Sequence record: MK047718.1
Reading direction: 5' to 3' (one strand)
DNA from: Escherichia phage p000y
Length of the DNA: 64,000 bases
In this document: positions 30,895 through 58,902 of the stretch, piece after piece
Layout of the letters: each line of letters starts with the position of its first letter
Numbering within the stretch: position 1 is the stretch's first letter
Notes under the pieces: generated by a model
The model's database searches: none
Seen by the model: the letters and a program-made list of their open reading frames with translations, nothing else
Told to the model about the DNA's origin: nothing
Position numbers and translations under genes: made by a program

Positions 30895-31530
30895 ATGAAA
30901 ACTACACCAATCACTATCGCTATTGACGCAATCGTAAAACAAGCTTCATCTCTTGCCACTATGGCTAAAGTAATTAGTCAAAACCCTGCTCGTTATAATG
31001 CTATTCTAGAAACTCTTCGACGCCCGGGACTTAGTAATTATGAAAGCCGAGTAATTATTACAGGTGTTGGTAAGAACGCTAATATCGCAACTAAAGCTTC
31101 CGAGACTTTTGCTTCACTCGGTATCCCAAGTATGTACTTGAACACTGGGCATTATTCTCATGGTGACGCAGGATTTATTGCACCTAATGATGTATTAGTT
31201 CACATCAGTCGTTCTGGTAAGACTGAAGAAATGATAGGTGTTGCTAAACATCTTCGTATGATTCGTCCTCAGGTTAAACAGATTCTGTTACATTGTAACC
31301 CTGACATTCCACAAGAATACGAAGCTCTTTTTGATTATACGTTCTGTACCGGTATCGCGGTAGAAGTTGACGAGAACTCTTTAGCTCCGACAATGTCTAC
31401 TACATTGTTGTTAGCGCTTATCGATACGTTCGCTATCAACCTTTCGTCTGAACGTGGATTTACCTCTAATGACTTCCTTAAGTTCCATCCAGGCGGTGCA
31501 CTAGGTGCCATGTTACGAGGCGAACAATGA
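30895..31530 (+). CDS. SIS-domain sugar-phosphate isomerase (KdsD/arabinose-5-phosphate isomerase-like)
   Basis: 211 aa; ITGVGKNANIATKASETFASLGIPS...HGDAG...HISRSGKTEE follows the KdsD/GutQ SIS pattern (GxGKS, ATFASxG, HGDxG, SxSGxTxE). Confidence 0.6.
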   Translation: MKTTPITIAIDAIVKQASSLATMAKVISQNPARYNAILETLRRPGLSNYESRVIITGVGKNANIATKASETFASLGIPSMYLNTGHYSHGDAGFIAPNDVLVHISRSGKTEEMIGVAKHLRMIRPQVKQILLHCNPDIPQEYEALFDYTFCTGIAVEVDENSLAPTMSTTLLLALIDTFAINLSSERGFTSNDFLKFHPGGALGAMLRGEQ

Positions 31531-31670
31531 AAGCAATAACAATAGGACTTTTACTATTGATGCTTGTCATGACTATCTACTGGAGCTTAACGGCTCCAGT
31601 AATGATTCCAACACTTGTAATTGGATGGATTATGATTGGACTACAAGCAAAGTATGAATGCTTTAACTAG
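31527..31670 (+). CDS. Small hydrophobic membrane peptide, 47 aa
   Basis: ATGA-coupled to the SIS gene; MKAITIGLLLLMLVMTIYWSLTAPVMIPTLVIGWIMIGL...; below the track cutoff. Confidence 0.4.
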   Translation: MKAITIGLLLLMLVMTIYWSLTAPVMIPTLVIGWIMIGLQAKYECFN

Positions 31671-31711
31671 AATAGTGTACAATACTCCTACTTACCAATG
31701 AGGACTTCAAC

Positions 31712-33397
31712 ATGAAAAAAGCTGTTATTCTTGGTGCTGGATTGGCAACTCGTTTATATCCAATAACGCATCATATTCCTAAGGTGCTTGTTAACTATAA
31801 ACAAGACACTATTCTGAGCAATTTGTATACAATTTATTCTGACCTTGGCGCAGATGAAATTATTGTAGTAGTTCATTCAAAATTTGCTGAAACTGTTCGA
31901 GCTTATTGTGAGCAAGAAGGGTTCAATGTGACTATTCGTACAGTTGATGAAGCATACGGTTCTGCTTATGCTCTTGCTAAATTACACAAAGATTTAGACG
32001 GCCATAACGTAATTGTTAACTGGTGTGATATTATTCCTGACTTTGGTTCATGGTCTTGGAATGTTAACGCAATCTATGTTAAGGGTGATGAATGTCGATA
32101 TAATTTCGATGGTGAAAATATCACTAACGTAGGTTCAACAGGTGGTAATGTTGTAGGAATTTATCAGTTCAAAGACTGGGAATTCTACATGGGTTCTACT
32201 GATGAGGAAATTCACGAATACTGCAAAGGTCGTGATTTCGTAGAATTCCTTTACGGCAGTGCATTCAATAAATCAGAGCTTATGAATCTAATTGATTTAG
32301 GTGATATGCCTAAACTTGAAAAGGCTCATGAAGTTCGTGAACTGAATCGTAGTTTTAATGCAGTTGAAATTGGCGAAGAAACTGTAACTAAATTCGCGTT
32401 AACCGAACAAGGTCGAGCTCTTCAAAAAGATGAGATTTCATGGTATTTGAAAGTGAAATCAGATTCAGTTCCTCAGTTAGTTTCGGTAAATGAAAATAAT
32501 TTTGAAATGGAACGTATTAAAGGTAAGCCGGCATTTGAATATATTAAATCCAAATCAAGTCTTGCTCGTCCACAAATTGTTGATGCAATTTTAGATGCAC
32601 TGAAATTCAGCACGGACACTTATTTTGTAAGTCCTGAAACTGTTCGCCGTGATTTCACTAAAGAGTTCTATACGAAAGTTATTGATCGTTGTGAAAGCAT
32701 TCAGCCATTGATTGATTCATTTGGTAAAATCACACACGTGAACTACACTAAAATTGGACGTCTGAAGCCAATGTTGAAACAAGCTTTAGAACATCTTATT
32801 CGTTATCATAACCGTTCTCAGGGACAGTACTCTGTTATTCATGGTGACCCGAACTTCAGTAATACTATGATTACCGATAACGGCGAAGTCAAGTTTATCG
32901 ACCCTCGTGGATATTTTGGTGAAACCAAGATTTACGGGCCAAAATTATATGATGAAGCTAAAGTGCTTTATGCTGTTTCAGGTTATGATGAATTCAATGC
33001 TAATCCGACCTGGGGACAGTTTACTATTGATGAAACAACTTGTAATGTGACTATTAACATCAATCCATTAGTTTACAAATATGGAAAGATGAGTTCGTTT
33101 AACGAGTATCATCATTTGGCTGTAGCAATTATCTGGATTGCATTAGGTGGTTATTTCAAGAATAATCCACTTAAAGCGGTTGCCGCATATTATAAAGGTA
33201 TGGAACTTCTGACTAAGCAATTACGTAACATGGGCCGTGTACTTCAAGACGGCTCTATTAGTTATGACGTAGCAGAACCTGTAACGGCTACTCTGATTAC
33301 AAAAAATCCTGGTAAATGGGTACTAACTGATAAAGAAACTGGTGTTTCCTATCGTCCAATCGGCGGCGATATCACTCATCAATGGGAACGAATCTAA
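31712..33397 (+). CDS. Bifunctional sugar-1-phosphate nucleotidyltransferase / APH-fold anomeric sugar kinase (MurU-AmgK-like fusion)
   Basis: 561 aa; N-terminal NTase motif AVILGAGLATRL; C-terminal kinase motifs HGDPNFSNTMI and FIDPRGYFG; RBS TGAGGA. Confidence 0.6.
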   Translation: MKKAVILGAGLATRLYPITHHIPKVLVNYKQDTILSNLYTIYSDLGADEIIVVVHSKFAETVRAYCEQEGFNVTIRTVDEAYGSAYALAKLHKDLDGHNVIVNWCDIIPDFGSWSWNVNAIYVKGDECRYNFDGENITNVGSTGGNVVGIYQFKDWEFYMGSTDEEIHEYCKGRDFVEFLYGSAFNKSELMNLIDLGDMPKLEKAHEVRELNRSFNAVEIGEETVTKFALTEQGRALQKDEISWYLKVKSDSVPQLVSVNENNFEMERIKGKPAFEYIKSKSSLARPQIVDAILDALKFSTDTYFVSPETVRRDFTKEFYTKVIDRCESIQPLIDSFGKITHVNYTKIGRLKPMLKQALEHLIRYHNRSQGQYSVIHGDPNFSNTMITDNGEVKFIDPRGYFGETKIYGPKLYDEAKVLYAVSGYDEFNANPTWGQFTIDETTCNVTININPLVYKYGKMSSFNEYHHLAVAIIWIALGGYFKNNPLKAVAAYYKGMELLTKQLRNMGRVLQDGSISYDVAEPVTATLITKNPGKWVLTDKETGVSYRPIGGDITHQWERI

Positions 33398-33783
33398 TGC
33401 ACCGTGTAGAAAACATGCTTAATCTTTGTTTTGATGTCGATGATTGTATAACAGAGTGGAATAACAATCGTGATTACGTGAACTTCAAACCAGACGTCGA
33501 AATGGTGTCTGCCATTAATGCCCTGTATGATGCAGGGCATACCATAACGCTTTACACTGCCCGTGGTATGAAGTCGGTAGGTCCTGGTCGTATAGCAATT
33601 GACATTCTCCCAAGTCTGATTCAGAACTTGGAAAACATTGGTTTGAAGTACCATAATTTGCTAACACATAAACCAGTATATGATTGGATTATCGACGACA
33701 AAGCTATGCGTCCTGACGAATTCAAAGCTCTTATGAATAAAGGCGAATTCGAAACATTTAAATCATATAAACCAAATCTATAA
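33397..33783 (+). CDS. HAD-superfamily phosphatase (KdsC-like), about 128 aa
   Basis: HAD motif I FDVDDCIT, motif II LYTARG, motif IV WIIDDKA; TAATG overlap with the upstream gene. Confidence 0.55.
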   Translation: MHRVENMLNLCFDVDDCITEWNNNRDYVNFKPDVEMVSAINALYDAGHTITLYTARGMKSVGPGRIAIDILPSLIQNLENIGLKYHNLLTHKPVYDWIIDDKAMRPDEFKALMNKGEFETFKSYKPNL

Positions 33784-33829
33784 TAATTTAAGTAAGACCT
33801 GCAAAAACCATCGCATCAATTAACGCGAG

Positions 33830-34999
33830 ATGCAAAAAATGAATACTTTTAAAATCGGAACGAATTTTGATTTAGCTCTTCTTGATAAAATCGTAGAGCT
33901 CAATAAAACCTATCCTAATAGCTTGATAAACGAAGTATATGGCTCTACAAGAGAAATGGCTTTTGTAGCAGCCAGACCTGATTTTAGGCTTCCTGACGTT
34001 GACAAAAAGATGTTAGAAGACTACGTTAAACGTTGTAACGAATTAGGTATTTGCTTTAACTATACACTCAACACGATAAATCCTGGTTCAAAAAGAGAAC
34101 TAGTTGAGTGGAAGAAGAAAGCTATTCAGGATTATGTTCAGTATCTTTGGTCAATAGGCGTATGGCGTATTACTATCGCTAACCCTGTTGTTATGGAAAT
34201 TGTTCGTGAAGTCAATAAAGATATTGAGATTGAAGTTTCAACAATTCTACATGTCGATGCGGTAACTCAAATCAAATACTTACATGACCAATATAACATC
34301 AAAAAGGTCTGTTGCGGAATTCATAAGAACCGTTCAGTTTCTTTCCTGAAGCGTGCAGCAGAGTTTTGCAATAAGAACAATATAATATTTGAAGTTCTTG
34401 TAAATGAGTTCTGTTCTAATGCTGGTAAAGGGTATACAACACATTGTAGTTATCGTGACTCTTGCTATATTTTCCATAGTACTGATGTTACCGCTGATGA
34501 TGCTAAATCCTTAAATGGATATCCTATGCAGCACTGTATTAAAGCTCGTGATACAGACCCATTTAACTGGTTGAGAACTCGTTTTGTTCGTCCTCAAGAT
34601 TTGAAACTTTATAATGATATTGGTATCACTCAATTCAAAGTTTCAGGACGTACAGGTAGCACAGACTACATTTTGAAAGTTCTTGAAGCATACGCTTCTG
34701 AAAAGTTTGAAGGTAATTTGTTAGAACTGTGGAAGCCTTTAGAGACTATTTTCACTCTTGAAAATGAGACTGAGTTTTCACATACAGTAAATATTGAAAC
34801 CTCTTTGTTAGATGGCTTTTTAGAAAAAAGGTGGTTCAGACATCCAGATTTTGATTGTGCTAATGAAATCTGTGGGTCAACGTGTACATATTGTGAAAGG
34901 TATTATAAACGTCAATTATCTAAAAACGGGTTAGCAGAAAACTCCATATCTATTATTGATATAACTAACTCTGATGACGCTTTGAGGTACCCGGAATGA
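33830..34999 (+). CDS. Cys-rich enzyme of unknown function, 389 aa (possibly peptidase-U32-like/Fe-S)
   Basis: Clustered cysteines (VCCGIH, FCSNAGKGYTTHCSYRDSCY, C-terminal CANEICGSTCTYC); family assignment is tentative. Confidence 0.35.
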   Translation: MQKMNTFKIGTNFDLALLDKIVELNKTYPNSLINEVYGSTREMAFVAARPDFRLPDVDKKMLEDYVKRCNELGICFNYTLNTINPGSKRELVEWKKKAIQDYVQYLWSIGVWRITIANPVVMEIVREVNKDIEIEVSTILHVDAVTQIKYLHDQYNIKKVCCGIHKNRSVSFLKRAAEFCNKNNIIFEVLVNEFCSNAGKGYTTHCSYRDSCYIFHSTDVTADDAKSLNGYPMQHCIKARDTDPFNWLRTRFVRPQDLKLYNDIGITQFKVSGRTGSTDYILKVLEAYASEKFEGNLLELWKPLETIFTLENETEFSHTVNIETSLLDGFLEKRWFRHPDFDCANEICGSTCTYCERYYKRQLSKNGLAENSISIIDITNSDDALRYPE

Positions 35000-35235
35000 T
35001 TTCTAGAAAAAGTTTTAATTATAAACTTAACGAAGAGATTTTGACTATGAAACTGAACACTAACGAACAAATTCTTAAAAAGGCCCTTATGGGCCTGTTT
35101 GAAACCAAAGCGGCTAAAGTGATTAAAGAACCTGTTCAATTGGAATACTACACTGATGCATTCCTTCATAGTGTTCTTGGAAGTATAGATTCTGAAGCTT
35201 TACGTTATATCAACATTGTCAAGAAATTCAAATAA
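34996..35235 (+). CDS. Hypothetical protein, 79 aa
   Basis: ATGA-coupled ORF. Confidence 0.35.
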   Translation: MISRKSFNYKLNEEILTMKLNTNEQILKKALMGLFETKAAKVIKEPVQLEYYTDAFLHSVLGSIDSEALRYINIVKKFK

Positions 35236-35277: not shown

Positions 35278-35994
35278 ATGGGAAAACATAACACAATGAA
35301 ATATATCAAAGCCGCAGATTTTCAAACCGCATTTAAAGCAGTCAATCGTGAAATTTTAGAAAACCCGGAATTCGTAACTGATTCTCGTATTGGACGTTGT
35401 AATGAAATTGGGTCTATGACAGTAGTTGTTGACACTCCATCATCATTCAAAATGACCGACCCACGTATTAACCGCATCTCTTATGAATATGCCGAAGACT
35501 TCTGGAAGTTTATGATTTCTGGTGGTACCAACGCAGAAGAAGCGTTTAAGGCATATCCTAATGTCGCTAAATTTATTTCTAAACCAAAATCAGATGTTTT
35601 GCCGGCGAACTTCAACACTTTCTATGGTCCTCGCATTGCGGCCCAATTACCAACTCTTCTAAAAGAACTTAAAGAAAAACCTAACTCTCGAAGAGTTGTG
35701 TTCCAAATTCTAGAAAGTTCTGATCAGGCTTTGCTTGATTCGGACGAAACACTTGAATATCCATGTACTGACTCAGTAACTTATTATATTCGTGATGGTA
35801 AGCTTTATACCCACTGTCATATGCGTTCTCAGAACTGTGCTGTTGTTATGCAGTTGGATTTTTATCTCCAAGGAAAATTACTTCATTATATCGCTAACGA
35901 ATGCGGTGTAGAAGTTGGTGATTATACTCATACCATGGTAAGTGCCCATGTGTTTGAACGTGATTTTGATTATGTTAAAGGATTCCTTGACTAA
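35278..35994 (+). CDS. 42: Thymidylate-synthase-fold pyrimidine hydroxymethylase (gp42 dCMP hydroxymethylase-like, divergent)
   Basis: 238 aa; nucleophile-Cys context YPCTDSVTYYIRD and HMRSQN typical of the TS / dCMP-hydroxymethylase fold; same position as T4 gene 42. Confidence 0.6.
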   Translation: MGKHNTMKYIKAADFQTAFKAVNREILENPEFVTDSRIGRCNEIGSMTVVVDTPSSFKMTDPRINRISYEYAEDFWKFMISGGTNAEEAFKAYPNVAKFISKPKSDVLPANFNTFYGPRIAAQLPTLLKELKEKPNSRRVVFQILESSDQALLDSDETLEYPCTDSVTYYIRDGKLYTHCHMRSQNCAVVMQLDFYLQGKLLHYIANECGVEVGDYTHTMVSAHVFERDFDYVKGFLD

Positions 35995-36893
35995 TGGCTA
36001 TTTTCCGCGTACCAATCTTGAGTATGCGGTCTTATGAAACTGGACAGTATGCTATCCTTAAGGATGGCAACTTCCAACTTCATTTGCACCGTGCTAATCC
36101 GGGTGATGTGATTACATATCCACGTAATGCATCTGATATTAAAGAATGCGAACGTCTTTTCCCAGAATTTAAGTTTGTTCCATTATGGTATAAAGATAAC
36201 GCGTATAACACTCGTAAATATTTCTGGACTGAAAATGAATTTGTGGTTGATTCATTAATTGATTATTATGATTGTGATTTTCTAATCACAGATATCACTG
36301 GTTATGGCGGCGCTTTTGATGTGGAATTCAATTTCAATATCACTGCAGACCCTAATAAACCACGTTTTTATATTGATGAATTCTTAAAAACCGACATGTT
36401 GTCTGTTAATCGTTCACTTCAAACTACTGTGTTGAATGAACGTCAAAAAGAAGTGCTGGTTAACGCAGGTGCAGATGGTAATAAGATTATCGTAACGCAG
36501 AAAGTTATACGTCCTTCCATCATGCAGCGTCTTGTAGGTGATTTGGCTCCTATTCATCTAGATGGTATTTTTCATCCATTTCGAATTAGTGACCCATGTT
36601 ATCGTTTTGAACAAGTGGTTGAATGTGCAATTCAATTAGGTCAACCGCTTTATATAACCGATCCAAATAATAGCTTCGACAGAAATAAGTATCCTGAAGA
36701 AGCGCTGATTCGAATTTTTAAACCAACTAAAACTGAGTACTATCAAATTCTTAAAGGACGTCCGAAAATTCAATATTTCGAAAATCCTGAAGAAGTATTC
36801 CATCCAGGTCTTGGTGAGTTCATCTACTTTAATGCTTTAATTTCTTCGCCGTATAATATACCTAAATACGAAGATGTCGTAATCGAGGAATAA
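35994..36893 (+). CDS. Hypothetical protein, 299 aa, at the position of T4 beta-glucosyltransferase
   Basis: ATGA-coupled to the hydroxymethylase gene; no recognisable motif. Confidence 0.4.
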   Translation: MAIFRVPILSMRSYETGQYAILKDGNFQLHLHRANPGDVITYPRNASDIKECERLFPEFKFVPLWYKDNAYNTRKYFWTENEFVVDSLIDYYDCDFLITDITGYGGAFDVEFNFNITADPNKPRFYIDEFLKTDMLSVNRSLQTTVLNERQKEVLVNAGADGNKIIVTQKVIRPSIMQRLVGDLAPIHLDGIFHPFRISDPCYRFEQVVECAIQLGQPLYITDPNNSFDRNKYPEEALIRIFKPTKTEYYQILKGRPKIQYFENPEEVFHPGLGEFIYFNALISSPYNIPKYEDVVIEE

Positions 36894-36894
36894 A

Positions 36895-37443
36895 ATGGCT
36901 AAAATTATTTTAGTAGATGGCCCGGATAATGCTGGTAAAACAACTTTCATTAATGACATAATGGAAATTAGTGAAAGATATGTAAAGATTGATTTCCCTA
37001 AACGAACAGTTGATGGACGTTTCGATGTTAAGTCTCGAAATGAAGTTGGCTGTTTCGAAACGATGTTGAATTATTTAGACCCTACTAAGATTTATCTGTT
37101 AGACCGTGGATATATTAGTAACTGGGTTTATGGACGTATTCGACAAGATGCGGACTCGATTCTTGACGTTTATGAACAGGACTATGTTCGTCTTTGCCAA
37201 AACCATGATGTGTTCACAATTATTTTAACACGTAACGAAATGACTGAAAGTTTTGAAGACGACCTTATTACTTTGTCTTCATTCGGTTTTAATACAGTCA
37301 TTTCACATTTTGAAGAGTTTGCAATTCATAACAAAATCCAAACGTATCAATTACTTAATCATGATGGTGCTAACAAAGTTATAGGATTTAATGCAAGCGA
37401 ACGTAATTATTTGATTACAGAAATTATCAAATGGGCTCGTTAA
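36895..37443 (+). CDS. P-loop nucleoside/nucleotide kinase-like protein, 182 aa
   Basis: Walker A ILVDGPDNAGKTT, then LLDRGYISNWVYG resembling the dNK/TMPK fold. Confidence 0.5.
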   Translation: MAKIILVDGPDNAGKTTFINDIMEISERYVKIDFPKRTVDGRFDVKSRNEVGCFETMLNYLDPTKIYLLDRGYISNWVYGRIRQDADSILDVYEQDYVRLCQNHDVFTIILTRNEMTESFEDDLITLSSFGFNTVISHFEEFAIHNKIQTYQLLNHDGANKVIGFNASERNYLITEIIKWAR

Positions 37444-57801: not shown

Positions 57802-58902
57802 ATGAAAGTTATGTTTATCCCATCTCGCGCAGTCCCATTTAACCCAGAACGTGTACAAGGTGGTCTTGAAGCAGTACATTTAAATGTGTTGAAATATTTA
57901 GTTTCTATCTGTGCTGATATTGATTATATCGGTTTTGATAATGACACATTTGGTGATTGGAAGGTTAATCATCATCCTGTTGGTCATCTGACAAAATTCA
58001 GTCTAGGTATGAGTTATACTATGGCTCGTAAGATTGTTGAACTAGCCGGCATCCATGAATACGATTTCGTTGTTACTATGGAACCGACTAAACTAACCGT
58101 TCAGGCAATTAAAGACGCAGGCCTCTCTAAAGTTCATAAGAATTTTATGGCAACACCATTTGAACCGGTATCTCGTGGCATTGTTCAAATTTGGGACCAG
58201 ACTATTCAAATTCATAAGAATGGTGGTAAGAGTTATGCTCCTACTAAAGCCTTCCGTGAATTTGAACGCAAATATTGTTATATGACTTCAGGTCTGACTG
58301 ACAAAATTGATTATGATTATTGGCGAGCAAATCCGTTGTTTGAAGCCGAAGATTATCCGGTTATTTGTTTGAATGAGAAACCTGAAGTTCTTCCGGCGAC
58401 GGATCTGATTATTAGTGCACAACGTTATGACACTAAAATGCGTCGTACTGATGTTGCTCTTGAAGCGATTAAAGCACTAGGCGAAAATGGTGCAGGATAC
58501 TGTCCTAGTAAATGGGCACCACCAGCTAAATATCCTGTTATTATTGATGCTCCACACAGTGAAATCATGGAACGCCTTAAAACAGCTAAAGCACTTATTA
58601 ATACGTGTCCTGACACAGGTACGGTAGAGAATAGTTCTATTGAAGCCATCTCTAAAGGTGTCCCTGTAATCCAGTTAGTTTTTAAGGATTATCCTCATGC
58701 GACATTTGAATACGACCCAGATACTGTGCGTGTAGAAATTGATTCCTCTACTCCTAAGAAAGAAGTAGTTGCGCTTTACACAAAAGCTGTATTAGAATTC
58801 ACTGACACATACGAAGCTCGAGTTAAACGTGCTGAAGCAGTATGGAAGAAGTATAACCGAGATGCAGTTGTTGCGATGTGGGATAAAATCTTCACAGCGT
58901 AA
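57802..58902 (+). CDS. GT-B fold glycosyltransferase (GT4-like), 366 aa; candidate DNA sugar transferase
   Basis: N-terminal MKVMFIP...GGLEAVHLNVLKYL and C-terminal TGTVENSSIEAISKGVPVI resemble GT4 donor-binding motifs; RBS AAGG. Confidence 0.55.
   Translation: MKVMFIPSRAVPFNPERVQGGLEAVHLNVLKYLVSICADIDYIGFDNDTFGDWKVNHHPVGHLTKFSLGMSYTMARKIVELAGIHEYDFVVTMEPTKLTVQAIKDAGLSKVHKNFMATPFEPVSRGIVQIWDQTIQIHKNGGKSYAPTKAFREFERKYCYMTSGLTDKIDYDYWRANPLFEAEDYPVICLNEKPEVLPATDLIISAQRYDTKMRRTDVALEAIKALGENGAGYCPSKWAPPAKYPVIIDAPHSEIMERLKTAKALINTCPDTGTVENSSIEAISKGVPVIQLVFKDYPHATFEYDPDTVRVEIDSSTPKKEVVALYTKAVLEFTDTYEARVKRAEAVWKKYNRDAVVAMWDKIFTA

What the first reader, a model, noticed from the sequence alone, without database searches (positions are those of the whole stretch)
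30895..34999. Sugar-nucleotide biosynthesis cassette inserted between DNA polymerase gene 43 and hydroxymethylase gene 42
Five co-oriented, tightly coupled ORFs sit where T4 has only imm: a KdsD-like SIS isomerase (30895-31530), a 47-aa membrane peptide, a fused nucleotidyltransferase/APH-fold kinase (31712-33397), a HAD phosphatase (33397-33783) and a Cys-rich enzyme (33830-34999). Together they spell a plausible route ribulose-5-P -> arabinose-5-P -> free arabinose -> arabinose-1-P -> NDP-arabinose, the donor needed to arabinosylate hydroxymethylcytosine. Arabinosyl-hmC has been reported for RB69-type phages, but I am assigning a pathway role to each ORF from motifs alone.
Basis: partly seen in the sequence, partly recalled or inferred. 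Interest (0 to 1): 0.85.

Follow-up and report, generated by a model that had tools for sequence, protein, structure and literature searches.

The report
Phage arabinosyl-hydroxycytosine DNA modification cassette
This stretch of an RB69-type phage is the already published gene set that makes UDP-arabinose to decorate the phage's 5-hydroxycytosine DNA, but its "Cys-rich" gene is not a sugar enzyme and may be an unrecognised oxygen-independent way of making the hydroxylated base.

Summary
The five ORFs are real, co-oriented and tightly coupled. They are 97% identical to RB69 genes p055 to p050. The block continues downstream through four more modification genes to uvsX.

The sugar-nucleotide reading is right in outline but already published (Thomas 2018; Lee 2026, which cites He 2026 and Mahler 2025). 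Three details need correcting:
- The acceptor base is 5-hydroxycytosine, not hydroxymethylcytosine. The neighbouring "gene 42" is an FMN/O2-dependent 5-hydroxy-dCMP synthase.
- The reported route is Ru5P, then Ara5P, then Ara-1,5-bisphosphate, then Ara-1-P, then UDP-arabinofuranose. There is no free arabinose.
- The Cys-rich protein is a U32-family Fe-S protein, and the one paper I could read assigns it no role.

My own comparison suggests a role for it. Relatives 47-58% identical sit in uncultured phages, in cassettes of kinase, gp46:47-like glycosyltransferase and U32. No ThyA-like hydroxylase lies within the 8 kb held on each side. These cassettes often include DAHP synthase/chorismate mutase, and one includes a whole shikimate pathway.

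U32 enzymes (RlhA, TrhP, UbiU/V) hydroxylate without O2 in prephenate-dependent pathways. I therefore propose that gp50 is an O2-independent second route to 5-hydroxycytosine. This is inferred, not shown.

The parts
30895..31530 (+). Arabinose-5-phosphate isomerase (RB69 gp55 homologue). SIS domain only, without the CBS pair of KdsD. Converts Ru5P to Ara5P.
   Evidence: Pfam SIS E 8e-10. NCBIfam KpsF/GutQ 9e-32 and KdsD 4e-30, both below the curated cut-offs. PDB 3etn 1e-24, 5uqi 2e-22, and E. coli KdsD SIS domain 2xhz 2e-18. PHROG 5670 'arabinose 5-phosphate isomerase' 2e-116. Maps to RB69p055.
31527..31670 (+). 47-aa hydrophobic peptide (RB69 gp54 homologue), function unknown. Translationally coupled to the isomerase by an ATGA overlap.
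   Evidence: ORF and overlap seen. PHROG 3610, unknown function, 7e-27. Conserved at 47-100% identity in most T4-like loci that carry the isomerase, and in JS98. RB69 annotates a shorter 36-aa version, 'similar to T4 42-imm intercistronic region'.
31712..33397 (+). Bifunctional AfhE-type enzyme (RB69 gp52:53). The N-terminal domain is a sugar-1-phosphate uridylyltransferase and the C-terminal domain is an APH-fold kinase. Reported activities: Ara5P to Ara-1,5-P2, and Ara-1-P + UTP to UDP-arabinofuranose.
   Evidence: Pfam NTP_transferase 8.5e-10, with weak kinase hits. Invariant GxGxR...K, HGDxxxSN and DPRGYFG motifs in 11 and 26 homologues. The orthologue P0296 passes the Pfam APH threshold. 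AF2 model pLDDT 92; Foldseek hits MurU 4y7u at 1e-8 and APH(2'')-IIa 3ham at 2e-7. 99.6% identical to RB69 ORF052+053. Activities taken from PMC13326640, section 27.
33382..33783 (+). AfhF-type small HAD phosphatase (RB69 gp51). The start is either 33382 or 33397. Reported to remove the 5-phosphate of Ara-1,5-P2 to give Ara-1-P.
   Evidence: No Pfam hit. NCBIfam TIGR01689 capsule biosynthesis phosphatase scores 1.6e-13. HAD motifs DxD..T, T, K and DD are invariant. PDB 9iqw is near-identical at 3e-72, and 1xpj scores 3e-14. Public annotation as 'phosphoheptose isomerase' is wrong.
33830..34999 (+). U32-family TIM-barrel Fe-S protein (RB69 gp50); likely start 33839. It is not needed for the sugar route. 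Proposed here to be a prephenate-dependent, O2-independent pyrimidine C5 hydroxylase.
34996..35235 (+). 79-aa ORF (RB69 gp49), function unknown. Coupled to the U32 gene by a 4-nt overlap.
   Evidence: PHROG 8601, unknown function, 2e-50. Only patchily conserved among T4-like loci. Contains no Cys.
35278..35994 (+). ThyA-superfamily 5-hydroxy-dCMP synthase (RB69 gp48).
   Evidence: 98.7% identical to RB69p048, which was shown experimentally to make 5hodCMP using O from 18O2 and a bound flavin. PDB 9iqc/9ir2 score 3e-160. Invariant EYPCT and MRSQN (D169N) motifs.
35994..36893 (+). DNA arabinosyltransferase 1 (RB69 gp46:47), a putative GT-B enzyme that puts the first arabinose on 5hoC in DNA.
   Evidence: No Pfam or NCBIfam hit. 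PHROG 3891 2e-155. Maps to RB69p047+p046, which are split in the old record by a sequencing error. It always directly follows the ThyA-like gene in related phages. Role taken from the structure comparison in PMC13326640.
36895..37443 (+). Thymidylate-kinase-like P-loop nucleotide kinase (RB69 gp45).
   Evidence: PHROG 761 thymidylate kinase 4e-45. Weak NCBIfam dTMP kinase hit. RB69p045 is annotated as thymidylate kinase. Labelled 'nucleotide kinase' in Table 1 of PMC13326640.
57802..58899 (+). Second arabinosyltransferase (RB69 gp3 homologue), 23 kb away from the cassette.
   Evidence: tblastn with RB69p003: 99.2% identity over 366 aa. Labelled beta-arabinosyltransferase 2 in PMC13326640.

Best explanation
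The window comes from a Mosigvirus (RB69-type T-even phage). Coordinates 30895-34999 are the sugar-donor half of its arabosyl-5-hydroxycytosine DNA hypermodification cluster, plus one gene with a different job.

Sugar arm. The gene identities are shown here; the activities are reported for near-identical homologues.
- The SIS isomerase turns host ribulose-5-P into D-arabinose-5-P.
- The APH-fold kinase domain of the 561-aa fusion phosphorylates C1 to give arabinose-1,5-bisphosphate.
- The small HAD phosphatase removes the 5-phosphate.
- The N-terminal nucleotidyltransferase domain of the same fusion makes UDP-arabinofuranose.

The logic copies the ADP-heptose pathway: a SIS isomerase (GmhA), a bifunctional kinase/nucleotidyltransferase (HldE) and a HAD phosphatase (GmhB). 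The kinase and transferase folds, however, are unrelated to those of HldE.

Base arm (downstream, 35278-37443). A ThyA-like FMN/O2-dependent enzyme makes 5-hydroxy-dCMP. A kinase helps take it to the triphosphate. After replication, the gp46:47-type and gp3-type glycosyltransferases attach arabinose to the 5-OH in DNA.

The U32 gene (33830-34999). This part is inferred, at about 0.45-0.5. It is not a sugar enzyme. I think it is an Fe-S, prephenate-dependent hydroxylase that makes the same 5-hydroxypyrimidine without O2. The phage would then have two routes to the base, as E. coli has TrhO/TrhP for ho5U and UbiI,H,F/UbiU,V for ubiquinone.
For: Identity of the cassette. The region is 97.3% identical to RB69 and maps gene for gene to RB69p055-p045. 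It is conserved in more than 150 Mosigvirus records. PMC13326640 assigns these genes to the pathway, with experimental proof for gp48.

My own domain evidence. SIS/KdsD-like isomerase. NTase plus APH-fold kinase with invariant catalytic motifs and a confident model. HAD motifs and a near-identical solved structure, 9iqw. Single-polypeptide HAD-SIS-NTase-kinase fusions.

Evidence on the U32 gene:
- It belongs to the U32 family by Pfam, and 5d88 is its top fold match.
- The three U32-motif residues whose mutation abolished or nearly abolished RlhA activity align to invariant phage residues, and a conserved C-terminal Cys cluster is present, as in RlhA.
- It is the most conserved gene of the cluster across genera: 82-89% identity, against 41-73% for AfhE.
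- It occurs in 221 phage records, all from Enterobacterales or Shewanella hosts. It is absent from the 57 Acinetobacter and 20 Rhizobium phage records that carry the O2-dependent hydroxylase.
- About 30 uncultured non-T4 phage loci carry homologues 47-58% identical. These sit in cassettes of TMP-kinase-like gene, gp46:47-like GT and U32, or of GT, API, AfhE, HAD and U32. Most of these 26+ loci show no ThyA-type protein within +-8 kb; the exception is L027, which carries an ordinary D169/N177 ThyA-type protein rather than the D169N hydroxylase form.
- DAHP synthase, usually fused to chorismate mutase, lies beside U32 in 5 distinct loci. All 4 further contigs chosen through that gene also carry U32 next to it.
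- One terminase-bearing contig has AroB, U32, DAHPS/CM, GT, kinase, API, AfhE, HAD, AroK, AroQ, AroA, AroC and AroE in a single block.
- RlhA, TrhP and UbiU/V are U32 proteins that need prephenate for O2-independent hydroxylation.
Against: The step order (bisphosphate route) and the UDP specificity come second-hand, from PMC13326640 quoting He et al. 2026. I could not read He et al. Table 1 of PMC13326640 still words the steps as Ara5P, then Ara, then Ara1P.

For the U32 proposal:
- There is no biochemical evidence.
- JS98-type Dhakaviruses infect E. coli and Salmonella, have the ThyA-like hydroxylase, and lack U32. An anaerobic back-up is therefore not obligatory in enteric hosts.
- The host-lifestyle correlation rests on few independent phage lineages.
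- I hold only +-8 kb of the uncultured contigs, so a ThyA-like gene could lie elsewhere. The pattern scan is not exhaustive.
- The Cys spacing (C-x5-C-x23-C) differs from the canonical U32 spacing seen in RlhA, CX6CX15CX3C.
- Alignments to UbiU, UbiV and TrhP are weak.
- In cassettes that also hold API and AfhE, U32 could equally be linked to the sugar.
- PMC13326640 labels it 'sugar or heterocycle reductase'.
- He et al. or Mahler et al. may already have tested it.
Confidence: 0.85

Rival explanations
1. Ara5P is dephosphorylated by the HAD enzyme to free arabinose, which the kinase re-phosphorylates at C1. The resulting NDP-arabinose is then used to arabinosylate hydroxymethylcytosine.
For: The same enzyme set could support this order on paper. 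Table 1 of PMC13326640 still words gp51 as 'dephosphorylates Araf5p to Ara' and the kinase domain as 'phosphorylates Ara to Araf1p'. Thomas et al. 2018 described the base as arabinosyl-hmC.
Against: The text of PMC13326640 follows the HY126 biochemistry: AfhE is an Ara5P kinase and AfhF dephosphorylates Ara-1,5-P2. NMR and MS show arabose joined directly to the ring through an ether oxygen on 5-hydroxycytosine. The flanking ThyA-like protein is a confirmed 5hodCMP synthase, not a hydroxymethylase. PMC13326640 reports that the gp51/gp81 models resemble bisphosphate phosphatases such as GmhB.
Confidence: 0.08
2. The U32 protein belongs to the sugar arm. It would be a reductase or other redox enzyme acting on the pentose or the sugar nucleotide, as the label 'sugar or heterocycle reductase' in the published table implies.
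For: It sits between the phosphatase and the base genes. In at least 13 uncultured-phage loci it lies within a few genes of API and AfhE homologues. Foldseek gives methylenetetrahydrofolate reductase TIM barrels at E about 1e-6, just behind 5d88.
Confidence: 0.15
3. The U32 protein is an RNA hydroxylase like TrhP or RlhA. It would make ho5U or ho5C in phage or host tRNA or rRNA, and would be unrelated to DNA modification.
For: The only U32 enzymes known to act on pyrimidines act on RNA. The best profile alignment is to RlhA. Prephenate-supply genes nearby would fit this reading equally well.
Against: It is a compact 360-390 aa protein whose only Pfam domain is U32; no hit covers the C-terminal regions that TrhP and RlhA have, such as DUF3656. 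It always sits inside DNA-modification cassettes and is often translationally coupled to the kinase, GT or dCMP deaminase. The host already has TrhP, TrhO and RlhA.
Confidence: 0.1
4. The U32 protein is a peptidase, as public records annotate it ('peptidase', 'collagenase-like protease').
For: The Pfam family name and GenBank/PHROG labels.
Against: In the characterised members discussed here, U32 proteins work in Fe-S and prephenate-dependent hydroxylation, and the peptidase mechanism was never established. The phage family has ten invariant cysteines. A protease has no reason to be conserved inside nucleotide and sugar cassettes next to chorismate mutase.
Confidence: 0.03
5. The cassette makes a sugar for the host cell surface (a KDO, capsule or LPS precursor) rather than for DNA.
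For: The isomerase resembles KdsD/KpsF. The phosphatase's best curated family is a 'capsule biosynthesis phosphatase', and PDB 9iqw is named 'Capsule biosynthesis protein'.
Against: The window has no KdsA or KdsB homologue beside these genes. The genes are embedded between DNA polymerase and the 5hodCMP synthase, GT and kinase genes. RB69 DNA carries arabinose on every cytosine. The same module always travels with the hydroxylase and DNA glycosyltransferase genes.
Confidence: 0.02

Closest known systems
RB69 gp45-gp55 / phage HY126 Afh system (arabinosyl-5-hydroxycytosine pathway; Thomas 2018, Mahler 2025, He 2026, Lee 2026)
   Same: Same genes in the same order, 97% nucleotide identity to RB69. 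The phosphatase and the hydroxylase are near-identical to the solved structures 9iqw and 9iqc. This is the same system.
   Different: In this window the kinase/NTase gene and the GT gene are intact. The old RB69 record splits each in two through sequencing errors. The literature I could read gives no function to gp50 (U32), gp49 or gp54.
ADP-heptose pathway: GmhA (SIS isomerase), HldE (bifunctional kinase/adenylyltransferase), GmhB (HAD phosphatase). Comparison from established knowledge of that pathway.
   Same: Identical logic: ketose-phosphate isomerisation by a SIS enzyme, anomeric phosphorylation to a bisphosphate, removal of the distal phosphate by a HAD enzyme, then nucleotidyl transfer. 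Kinase and transferase sit on one polypeptide. PMC13326640 reports a GmhB structural match for the homologous DLP3 phosphatase gp81 and argues by analogy for gp51.
   Different: The substrate is a pentose, not a heptose, and the nucleotide is UDP, not ADP. The kinase has an APH/choline-kinase fold and the transferase is RmlA/MurU-like, not the ribokinase-like and cytidylyltransferase-like domains of HldE. The resemblance is therefore convergent, not membership. The public label 'phosphoheptose isomerase' on the HAD gene is an error.
   Same: MurU is among the top structural matches of the N-terminal domain (4y7u, E 1e-8). The isomerase is a KdsD-type SIS domain.
   Different: The two activities are fused here. 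The kinase substrate is reported to be a sugar 5-phosphate, not a free sugar. The isomerase lacks the CBS domains and falls far below the KdsD and GutQ curated cut-offs. The window's phosphatase is of the 1xpj/EcbF type, not KdsC-like. KdsC-like phosphatases do take this position in the uncultured-phage cassettes.
U32-family O2-independent hydroxylases: RlhA (ho5C2501 of 23S rRNA), TrhP (ho5U34 of tRNA), UbiU/UbiV (ubiquinone)
   Same: Same Pfam family and fold. The U32-motif Glu and two Cys shown by mutation to matter in RlhA are conserved, and there are extra C-terminal Cys. RlhA hydroxylates C5 of cytosine, the same chemistry that 5hoC needs. In each known case the U32 route parallels an O2-dependent enzyme. 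Prephenate-pathway genes lie next to the phage homologues.
   Different: It is only distantly related: hhalign E is 1e-5 to RlhA and weaker to the others. The Cys spacing differs. Pfam finds no domain besides U32, so no RNA-binding C-terminal domain is detected, and there is no UbiT-like partner. The presumed substrate would be a deoxynucleotide or DNA. Activity is untested.
T4 gp42 / alpha- and beta-glucosyltransferase hmC-glucose system
   Same: Same genomic neighbourhood (gene 43 to uvsX). Same strategy: a ThyA-superfamily enzyme modifies dCMP, and sugars are added to DNA after replication.
   Different: The base is hydroxylated rather than hydroxymethylated, using a flavin and O2 rather than folate. 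The sugar is arabinofuranose from a phage-made donor, not host UDP-glucose.

Membership tests
KdsD/GutQ arabinose-5-phosphate isomerase | SIS domain homologous to that of KdsD | tested here: met
   Pfam SIS E 8e-10. PDB 2xhz (E. coli KdsD SIS domain) 2e-18, 3etn 1e-24.
KdsD/GutQ arabinose-5-phosphate isomerase | Full-length architecture (SIS plus tandem CBS domains) and a score above the curated equivalog cut-off | tested here: not met
   The protein is 211 aa with matches only to the SIS part. It scores 105 bits against a cut-off of 505 for KdsD, and 79 against 481 for GutQ. It is a SIS-only relative, not a KdsD equivalog.
KdsD/GutQ arabinose-5-phosphate isomerase | Catalyses Ru5P <-> Ara5P | not testable with these tools
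   Assigned by structure comparison in PMC13326640. I saw no assay for this protein.
AfhE-type bifunctional Ara5P kinase / UDP-arabinose pyrophosphorylase | N-terminal sugar-1-P nucleotidyltransferase domain with the G-x-G-x-R ... K signature | tested here: met
   Pfam NTP_transferase 8.5e-10. G10, R14 and K24 are invariant in 26 homologues. Foldseek hits MurU, RmlA and GalU at about 1e-8.
AfhE-type bifunctional Ara5P kinase / UDP-arabinose pyrophosphorylase | C-terminal APH/choline-kinase-fold domain with catalytic H-G-D-x-x-x-x-N and a downstream metal-binding Asp | tested here: met
   H377, G378, D379, N384 and D397 are invariant. Foldseek hits 3ham APH(2'')-IIa at 2e-7 over 335 columns. 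The orthologue P0296 passes the Pfam APH cut-off. The window protein itself gives only sub-threshold kinase hits.
AfhE-type bifunctional Ara5P kinase / UDP-arabinose pyrophosphorylase | Kinase acts on Ara5P (not free arabinose); the transferase uses UTP | not testable with these tools
   Reported for HY126 AfhE by He et al. 2026, as quoted in PMC13326640. The primary paper is not held.
HAD-superfamily phosphatase (AfhF type) | HAD motifs I (DxDxT), II (T/S), III (K) and IV (DD) | tested here: met
   D15 (with D13), T19, T51/T54, K92 and D100-D101 are invariant in 8 homologues. The profile hits 1xpj at 3e-14 and near-identical 9iqw at 3e-72. There is no Pfam hit. NCBIfam TIGR01689 scores 1.6e-13, below its cut-off.
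Peptidase U32 family (Fe-S, prephenate-dependent hydroxylases RlhA/TrhP/UbiU-V) | Pfam PF01136 above the gathering score, and the U32 TIM-barrel fold | tested here: met
Peptidase U32 family (Fe-S, prephenate-dependent hydroxylases RlhA/TrhP/UbiU-V) | U32-motif residues tested by mutation in RlhA (C169 and C176 essential; E161A almost inactive), plus conserved C-terminal cysteines | tested here: met
   hhalign aligns them with E193, C206 and C212. All three are invariant in 24 homologues, as is the C-terminal C343/C348/C352/C355 cluster. The RlhA mutagenesis is in PMC5727448.
Peptidase U32 family (Fe-S, prephenate-dependent hydroxylases RlhA/TrhP/UbiU-V) | Canonical Cys spacing of the U32 Fe-S motif (CX6CX15CX3C, as read in RlhA) | tested here: not met
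   The phage family has C195-x10-C206-x5-C212-x23-C236. It is a divergent subfamily, not an orthologue of RlhA, TrhP or UbiU/V. Alignments to UbiU, UbiV and TrhP are weak.
Peptidase U32 family (Fe-S, prephenate-dependent hydroxylases RlhA/TrhP/UbiU-V) | Binds a [4Fe-4S] cluster, needs prephenate and hydroxylates without O2 | not testable with these tools
   Only indirect support: DAHP synthase/chorismate mutase, or a complete shikimate pathway, lies next to phage homologues.
   The protein has MRSQN, the D169N signature that PMC13326640 uses to predict 5hodCMP synthases. It is 98.7% identical to RB69 gp48, which was shown to make 5-hydroxy-dCMP with O from 18O2 and a bound flavin.

The most novel reading that the evidence does not exclude
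RB69 gp50 and its relatives would be a new subfamily of U32 Fe-S enzymes that hydroxylate C5 of a deoxypyrimidine, probably dCMP, using prephenate instead of O2. Enteric RB69-type phages would then have two routes to 5-hydroxycytosine: a flavin/O2 route through the ThyA-like gp48 and a prephenate route through gp50. That would let them replace cytosine in the anoxic gut.

A large group of uncultured phages would rely on the U32 route alone. The nearest cellular homologues of their DAHP synthase/chorismate mutase are from Bacteroidota. Some of these phages go as far as encoding chorismate mutase, or the whole shikimate pathway, to supply the oxygen donor.

I found no statement of this idea in the searchable literature. 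The 2026 NAR paper lists gp50 only as 'sugar or heterocycle reductase'. It cites the RlhA and tRNA hydroxylation work as unrelated pathways, without noting that gp50 is a U32 homologue. I could not read He et al. 2026 or Mahler et al. 2025, so prior assignment is not excluded.
Probability: 0.45. Interest if true: 0.8.

Novelty: already known. Interest (0 to 1): 0.45.

Why it matters
It explains how RB69-type phages, widely used in phage therapy collections, coat every cytosine with arabinose to escape restriction and CRISPR.

The leftover U32 gene is what remains worth following. The only demonstrated source of the 5-hydroxyl group needs molecular oxygen, yet these phages live on gut bacteria. 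If gp50 is a prephenate-dependent hydroxylase, three things would follow:
- It would be the first U32 enzyme acting in DNA precursor metabolism.
- It would be a third example of paired O2-dependent and O2-independent hydroxylation routes.
- It would give a reason why some uncultured phages carry a complete shikimate pathway.

It would also provide a sequence marker for predicting 5-hydroxypyrimidine DNA in phages that lack the ThyA-like enzyme.

Tried and rejected
- **Papers not held.** I tried to read He et al. 2026 (Nat Chem Biol) and Mahler et al. 2025 (Cell Host Microbe). Neither is held. Searches for AfhE/HY126, Aat and arabinofuranosylation found only papers citing them.
- **U32 against E. 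coli paralogues.** hhalign against UbiU, UbiV and TrhP as single sequences gave weak or meaningless alignments. Only RlhA aligned usefully.
- **Promoters and terminators.** The scan gave no more sites than shuffled sequence, so it says nothing about operon structure.
- **DAHP_synth_1 neighbour as KdsA.** I considered that this neighbour of U32 might be KdsA, which would have implied a KDO pathway together with the API and the KdsC-like HAD. I rejected it: NCBIfam scores DAHP synthase at 1e-47 to 3e-70 against KDO8P synthase at 1e-14 to 1e-17, and most copies carry a chorismate mutase domain.
- **Strict 'U32 only where hosts are facultative anaerobes' rule.** It holds for Acinetobacter, Rhizobium/Agrobacterium and one Pseudomonas phage (all without U32) and for 11 or more enterobacterial and Shewanella phage genera (with U32). 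It fails for Dhakavirus.
- **ThyA-like genes in the U32-only loci.** HMM and six-frame searches found only one ordinary D169/N177 ThyA-type protein, in L027.
- **gp49.** It is not a conserved partner of U32: it is patchily conserved and has no Cys.
- **First structure job for the fusion enzyme.** I repeated it with database homologues.

Full report
**What is there**

The window is a T-even phage of the RB69 type. The gene upstream of the finding is the RB69-type DNA polymerase, gene 43. The whole 11 kb around the finding is 97.3% identical to RB69.

They map one to one onto RB69p055, p054, p053+p052, p051 and p050. An ATGA overlap links the first two. A TAATG overlap links the third and fourth. 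The other gaps are 41 and 46 nt.

Two starts are uncertain:
- The phosphatase may begin at 33382 rather than 33397. The near-identical crystallised protein 9iqw has 134 residues.
- The U32 gene more probably begins at 33839, because homologues start MNTFK and a GAG lies 9 nt upstream.

The 4.5 kb is found at 95-99% identity in 152 phage records. Base composition is flat across it, so nothing marks it as a recent insertion.

The co-oriented, overlapping run does not stop at 34999. It continues through:
- a 79-aa ORF;
- a ThyA-like gene (35278-35994);
- a 299-aa glycosyltransferase (35994-36893);
- a P-loop kinase (36895-37443), followed by uvsX.

**The sugar-nucleotide genes**

*Isomerase.* The first protein is a SIS-only relative of KdsD/GutQ. 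Pfam gives E 8e-10, the KdsD SIS structure 2xhz gives 2e-18, and NCBIfam KpsF/GutQ gives 9e-32. It lacks the CBS domains and falls far below the equivalog cut-offs.

*Kinase/nucleotidyltransferase fusion.* The 561-aa protein has an N-terminal sugar-1-phosphate nucleotidyltransferase domain with invariant GxGxR...K. Its C-terminal domain has invariant HGDxxxSN and DPRGYFG motifs, the catalytic loop and metal site of APH/choline-kinase-type kinases. A confident AlphaFold model (pLDDT 92) matches MurU and RmlA-type transferases at about 1e-8, and APH(2'')-IIa at 2e-7. An orthologue passes the Pfam APH threshold.

*Phosphatase.* The small protein has all four HAD motifs. It is nearly identical to PDB 9iqw and related to 1xpj.

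*Fusion evidence.* Proteins of about 900 aa exist elsewhere that fuse HAD, SIS, nucleotidyltransferase and kinase in one chain. This independently shows that the activities work together.

**What is already known**

This cassette is published.
- Thomas et al. 2018 proposed ORF53_52c and ORF055c for UDP-arabinose synthesis and showed that the split gene was a sequencing error.
- Lee et al. 2026 (PMC13326640) showed that RB69 DNA carries mono- and di-arabosylated 5-hydroxycytosine, with the sugar linked through an ether oxygen directly on C5.
- The same paper showed that the ThyA homologue gp48 makes 5-hydroxy-dCMP, takes its oxygen from 18O2 and binds a flavin.
- Quoting He et al. 2026 on phage HY126, it describes AfhE as an Ara5P kinase plus UDP-arabinose pyrophosphorylase. 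It describes AfhF as the Mg-dependent phosphatase that converts Ara-1,5-bisphosphate to Ara-1-P.

The window's ThyA-like protein is 98.7% identical to RB69 gp48. It has the RSQN (D169N) signature and matches PDB 9iqc at 3e-160.

1. The base is 5-hydroxycytosine, not hydroxymethylcytosine.
2. The neighbouring gene is not a hydroxymethylase.
3. Free arabinose is not an intermediate.

The third correction is second-hand, because I could not read He et al..

The route mirrors ADP-heptose synthesis (GmhA, HldE, GmhB) but uses unrelated kinase and transferase folds. This comparison rests on established knowledge of that pathway, not on a test done here.

**The gene that does not fit**

The 'Cys-rich enzyme' is a U32-family protein:
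- Pfam E 7e-11.
- AlphaFold model with pLDDT 87.

The sugar route does not need it. Acinetobacter phage DLP1 and JS98-type phages keep the AfhE, HAD, ThyA-like, GT and kinase genes without it; DLP1 also keeps the isomerase, which I did not detect in JS98. A Pseudomonas-phage-like contig (L079) has the complete gene set, isomerase included, and also lacks U32. Lee et al. report that DLP3, a relative of DLP1, makes tri-arabinosylated 5hoC with a gene set that lists no U32. They list gp50 only in a table, as 'sugar or heterocycle reductase', and never discuss it.

It is nevertheless the most conserved gene of the cluster across phage genera, at 82-89% identity. The kinase/transferase fusion is only 41-73% identical.

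An alignment of 24 homologues shows ten invariant cysteines, including a C-terminal CX4CX3CX2C. Profile alignment to E. coli RlhA (E 1e-5) places phage E193, C206 and C212 on RlhA E161, C169 and C176. In RlhA, C169 and C176 are essential for making 5-hydroxycytidine and the E161A mutant is almost inactive. RlhA also needs C-terminal cysteines.

**Where else the U32 gene occurs**

*In sequenced phages.* The U32 gene is in 221 records, all from Enterobacterales or Shewanella hosts. The ThyA-like hydroxylase and the fusion enzyme are each in 373 records. The ThyA-like set includes 57 Acinetobacter and 20 Rhizobium phages.

*In metagenomes and IMG/VR.* Homologues 47-58% identical occur in about 30 phage loci that are not T4-like. 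Their neighbourhoods fall into recurrent cassettes:
- Cassette 1: GT, API, AfhE, sometimes DAHP synthase/chorismate mutase, a KdsC-like HAD, then U32.
- Cassette 2: a thymidylate-kinase-like gene, a GT homologous to gp46:47, then U32, followed by DnaE, RecA and dCMP deaminase. These genes often overlap one another.
- Large-contig loci: in L001 (466 kb) and L002 (60 kb), U32 directly follows a dCMP deaminase.

*Absence of a ThyA-type hydroxylase.* No D169N ThyA-like gene lies within +-8 kb in any of these loci. The only ThyA-superfamily hit, in L027, is an ordinary D169/N177 type. A separate scan of IMG/VR with a ThyA-like profile returned 47 loci. The contigs that also carry U32 are all T4-like, and none of the U32-only contigs appeared.

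*A mirrored trio.* In every phage with the ThyA-like hydroxylase, the order is hydroxylase, then gp46:47-type GT, then kinase. In the U32-only phages the trio is kinase, gp46:47-type GT and U32. This looks like non-orthologous replacement of the hydroxylase.

**The prephenate link**

The gene family next to U32 in five distinct loci scores as DAHP synthase, at 1e-47 to 3e-70. KDO8P synthase scores only about 1e-14. In most copies the protein carries a C-terminal chorismate mutase domain.

I then picked four further phage contigs through that protein. All four carry U32 one or two genes away.

One of them is a 114.7 kb contig with a terminase. It has, in a single co-oriented block: AroB, U32, DAHPS/chorismate mutase, GT, kinase, API, AfhE, HAD, AroK, type II dehydroquinase, EPSP synthase, chorismate synthase and shikimate dehydrogenase. 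That is every step to chorismate and on to prephenate.

Prephenate is established as the oxygen donor for UbiU/V. It is genetically required for ho5C formation by RlhA and for the TrhP route to ho5U. In E. coli each of these U32 routes runs beside an O2-dependent one.

**Proposal and its limits**

I propose that gp50 is a prephenate-dependent, O2-independent hydroxylase that makes the 5-hydroxypyrimidine. In RB69-type phages it would work alongside the O2-dependent gp48. In the uncultured phages it would work alone.

Nothing here shows activity, and several points weigh against the proposal:
- Dhakaviruses infect E. coli without the gene.
- The host-lifestyle pattern rests on few lineages.
- I hold only parts of the uncultured contigs.
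- The Cys spacing is not the canonical U32 one.
- In cassettes with API and AfhE, a sugar-linked role cannot be excluded.
- An RNA target is also possible.
- In some loci a methyltransferase lies nearby, so prephenate could feed other chemistry.

I put the proposal at about 0.45.

**Verdict**

The cassette itself scores as already known. The residual interest lies in the unassigned U32 gene and in the testable idea that it supplies an anaerobic route to 5-hydroxycytosine.

Noticed in passing
window 57802-58899 (+): Homologue of RB69 gp3, 99% identical. This is the second (beta) arabinosyltransferase of the same modification system and lies 23 kb from the cassette.
   Followed up: partly
L057 7909-19702 (ENA ERZ28633460 scaffold_16, 114.7 kb): An uncultured phage contig with a terminase encodes the complete shikimate pathway plus chorismate mutase. 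These genes are interleaved with U32, a GT, a kinase, and API, AfhE and HAD homologues, and end with a Fer4_12 radical-SAM-activase-like gene.
   Followed up: partly
L053 8997-10842 and L056 8897-10766: A cytidylyltransferase-like gene and a class I methyltransferase-like gene lie 1-3 kb downstream of the U32 cassette in two uncultured phages. They could mean further elaboration of the hydroxylated base, for instance chemistry like CmoA/CmoB, which also uses prephenate.
   Followed up: no
L005 5062-5940 (phage JS98) and L007 (Klebsiella Marfavirus): JS98 has imm, a gp54-like peptide and an unknown 166-aa protein (PHROG 1754) where RB69 has the isomerase, and it lacks U32. Marfaviruses keep U32 but lack the isomerase, and place the kinase between the phosphatase and U32.
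   Followed up: partly
window 33811-33828: An inverted repeat (TCGCATCAATTAACGCGA) lies immediately upstream of the U32 start codon. A TATAAT-like hexamer lies at 33779-33784, in the 46-nt gap after the phosphatase gene. The scan found no more such sites than in shuffled sequence.
   Followed up: no
window 33397-33783, 33830-34999, 35278-35994 (public annotations): Public records and PHROGs mislabel three genes: the HAD phosphatase as 'phosphoheptose isomerase', the U32 protein as 'peptidase/collagenase', and the 5hodCMP synthase as 'thymidylate synthase' or 'dCMP hydroxymethylase'.
   Followed up: yes
P0324, P0328, P0329, P0332, P0331: Proteins of about 900-955 aa fuse HAD, SIS, nucleotidyltransferase and kinase in one chain. 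They occur in metagenomes, and one is in a eukaryotic transcriptome. This suggests the pentose-activation module is widespread outside phages.
   Followed up: partly
L001 7447-9086, L002 7504-9083, L045 7540-9110: In L001 and L045 the U32 gene overlaps the stop of a dCMP/cytidine deaminase-family gene; in L002 it follows one after a 71-nt gap. L001 and L002 come from 466 kb and 60 kb contigs that also carry DnaE-type polymerase, UDG and thymidylate kinase genes. This hints that the substrate there might be a uracil nucleotide.
   Followed up: no
L028 9090-10160: In one kinase-GT-U32 cassette, the gene directly after U32 has a weak GT47 (exostosin) glycosyltransferase match. This suggests a second sugar transfer.
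   Followed up: no
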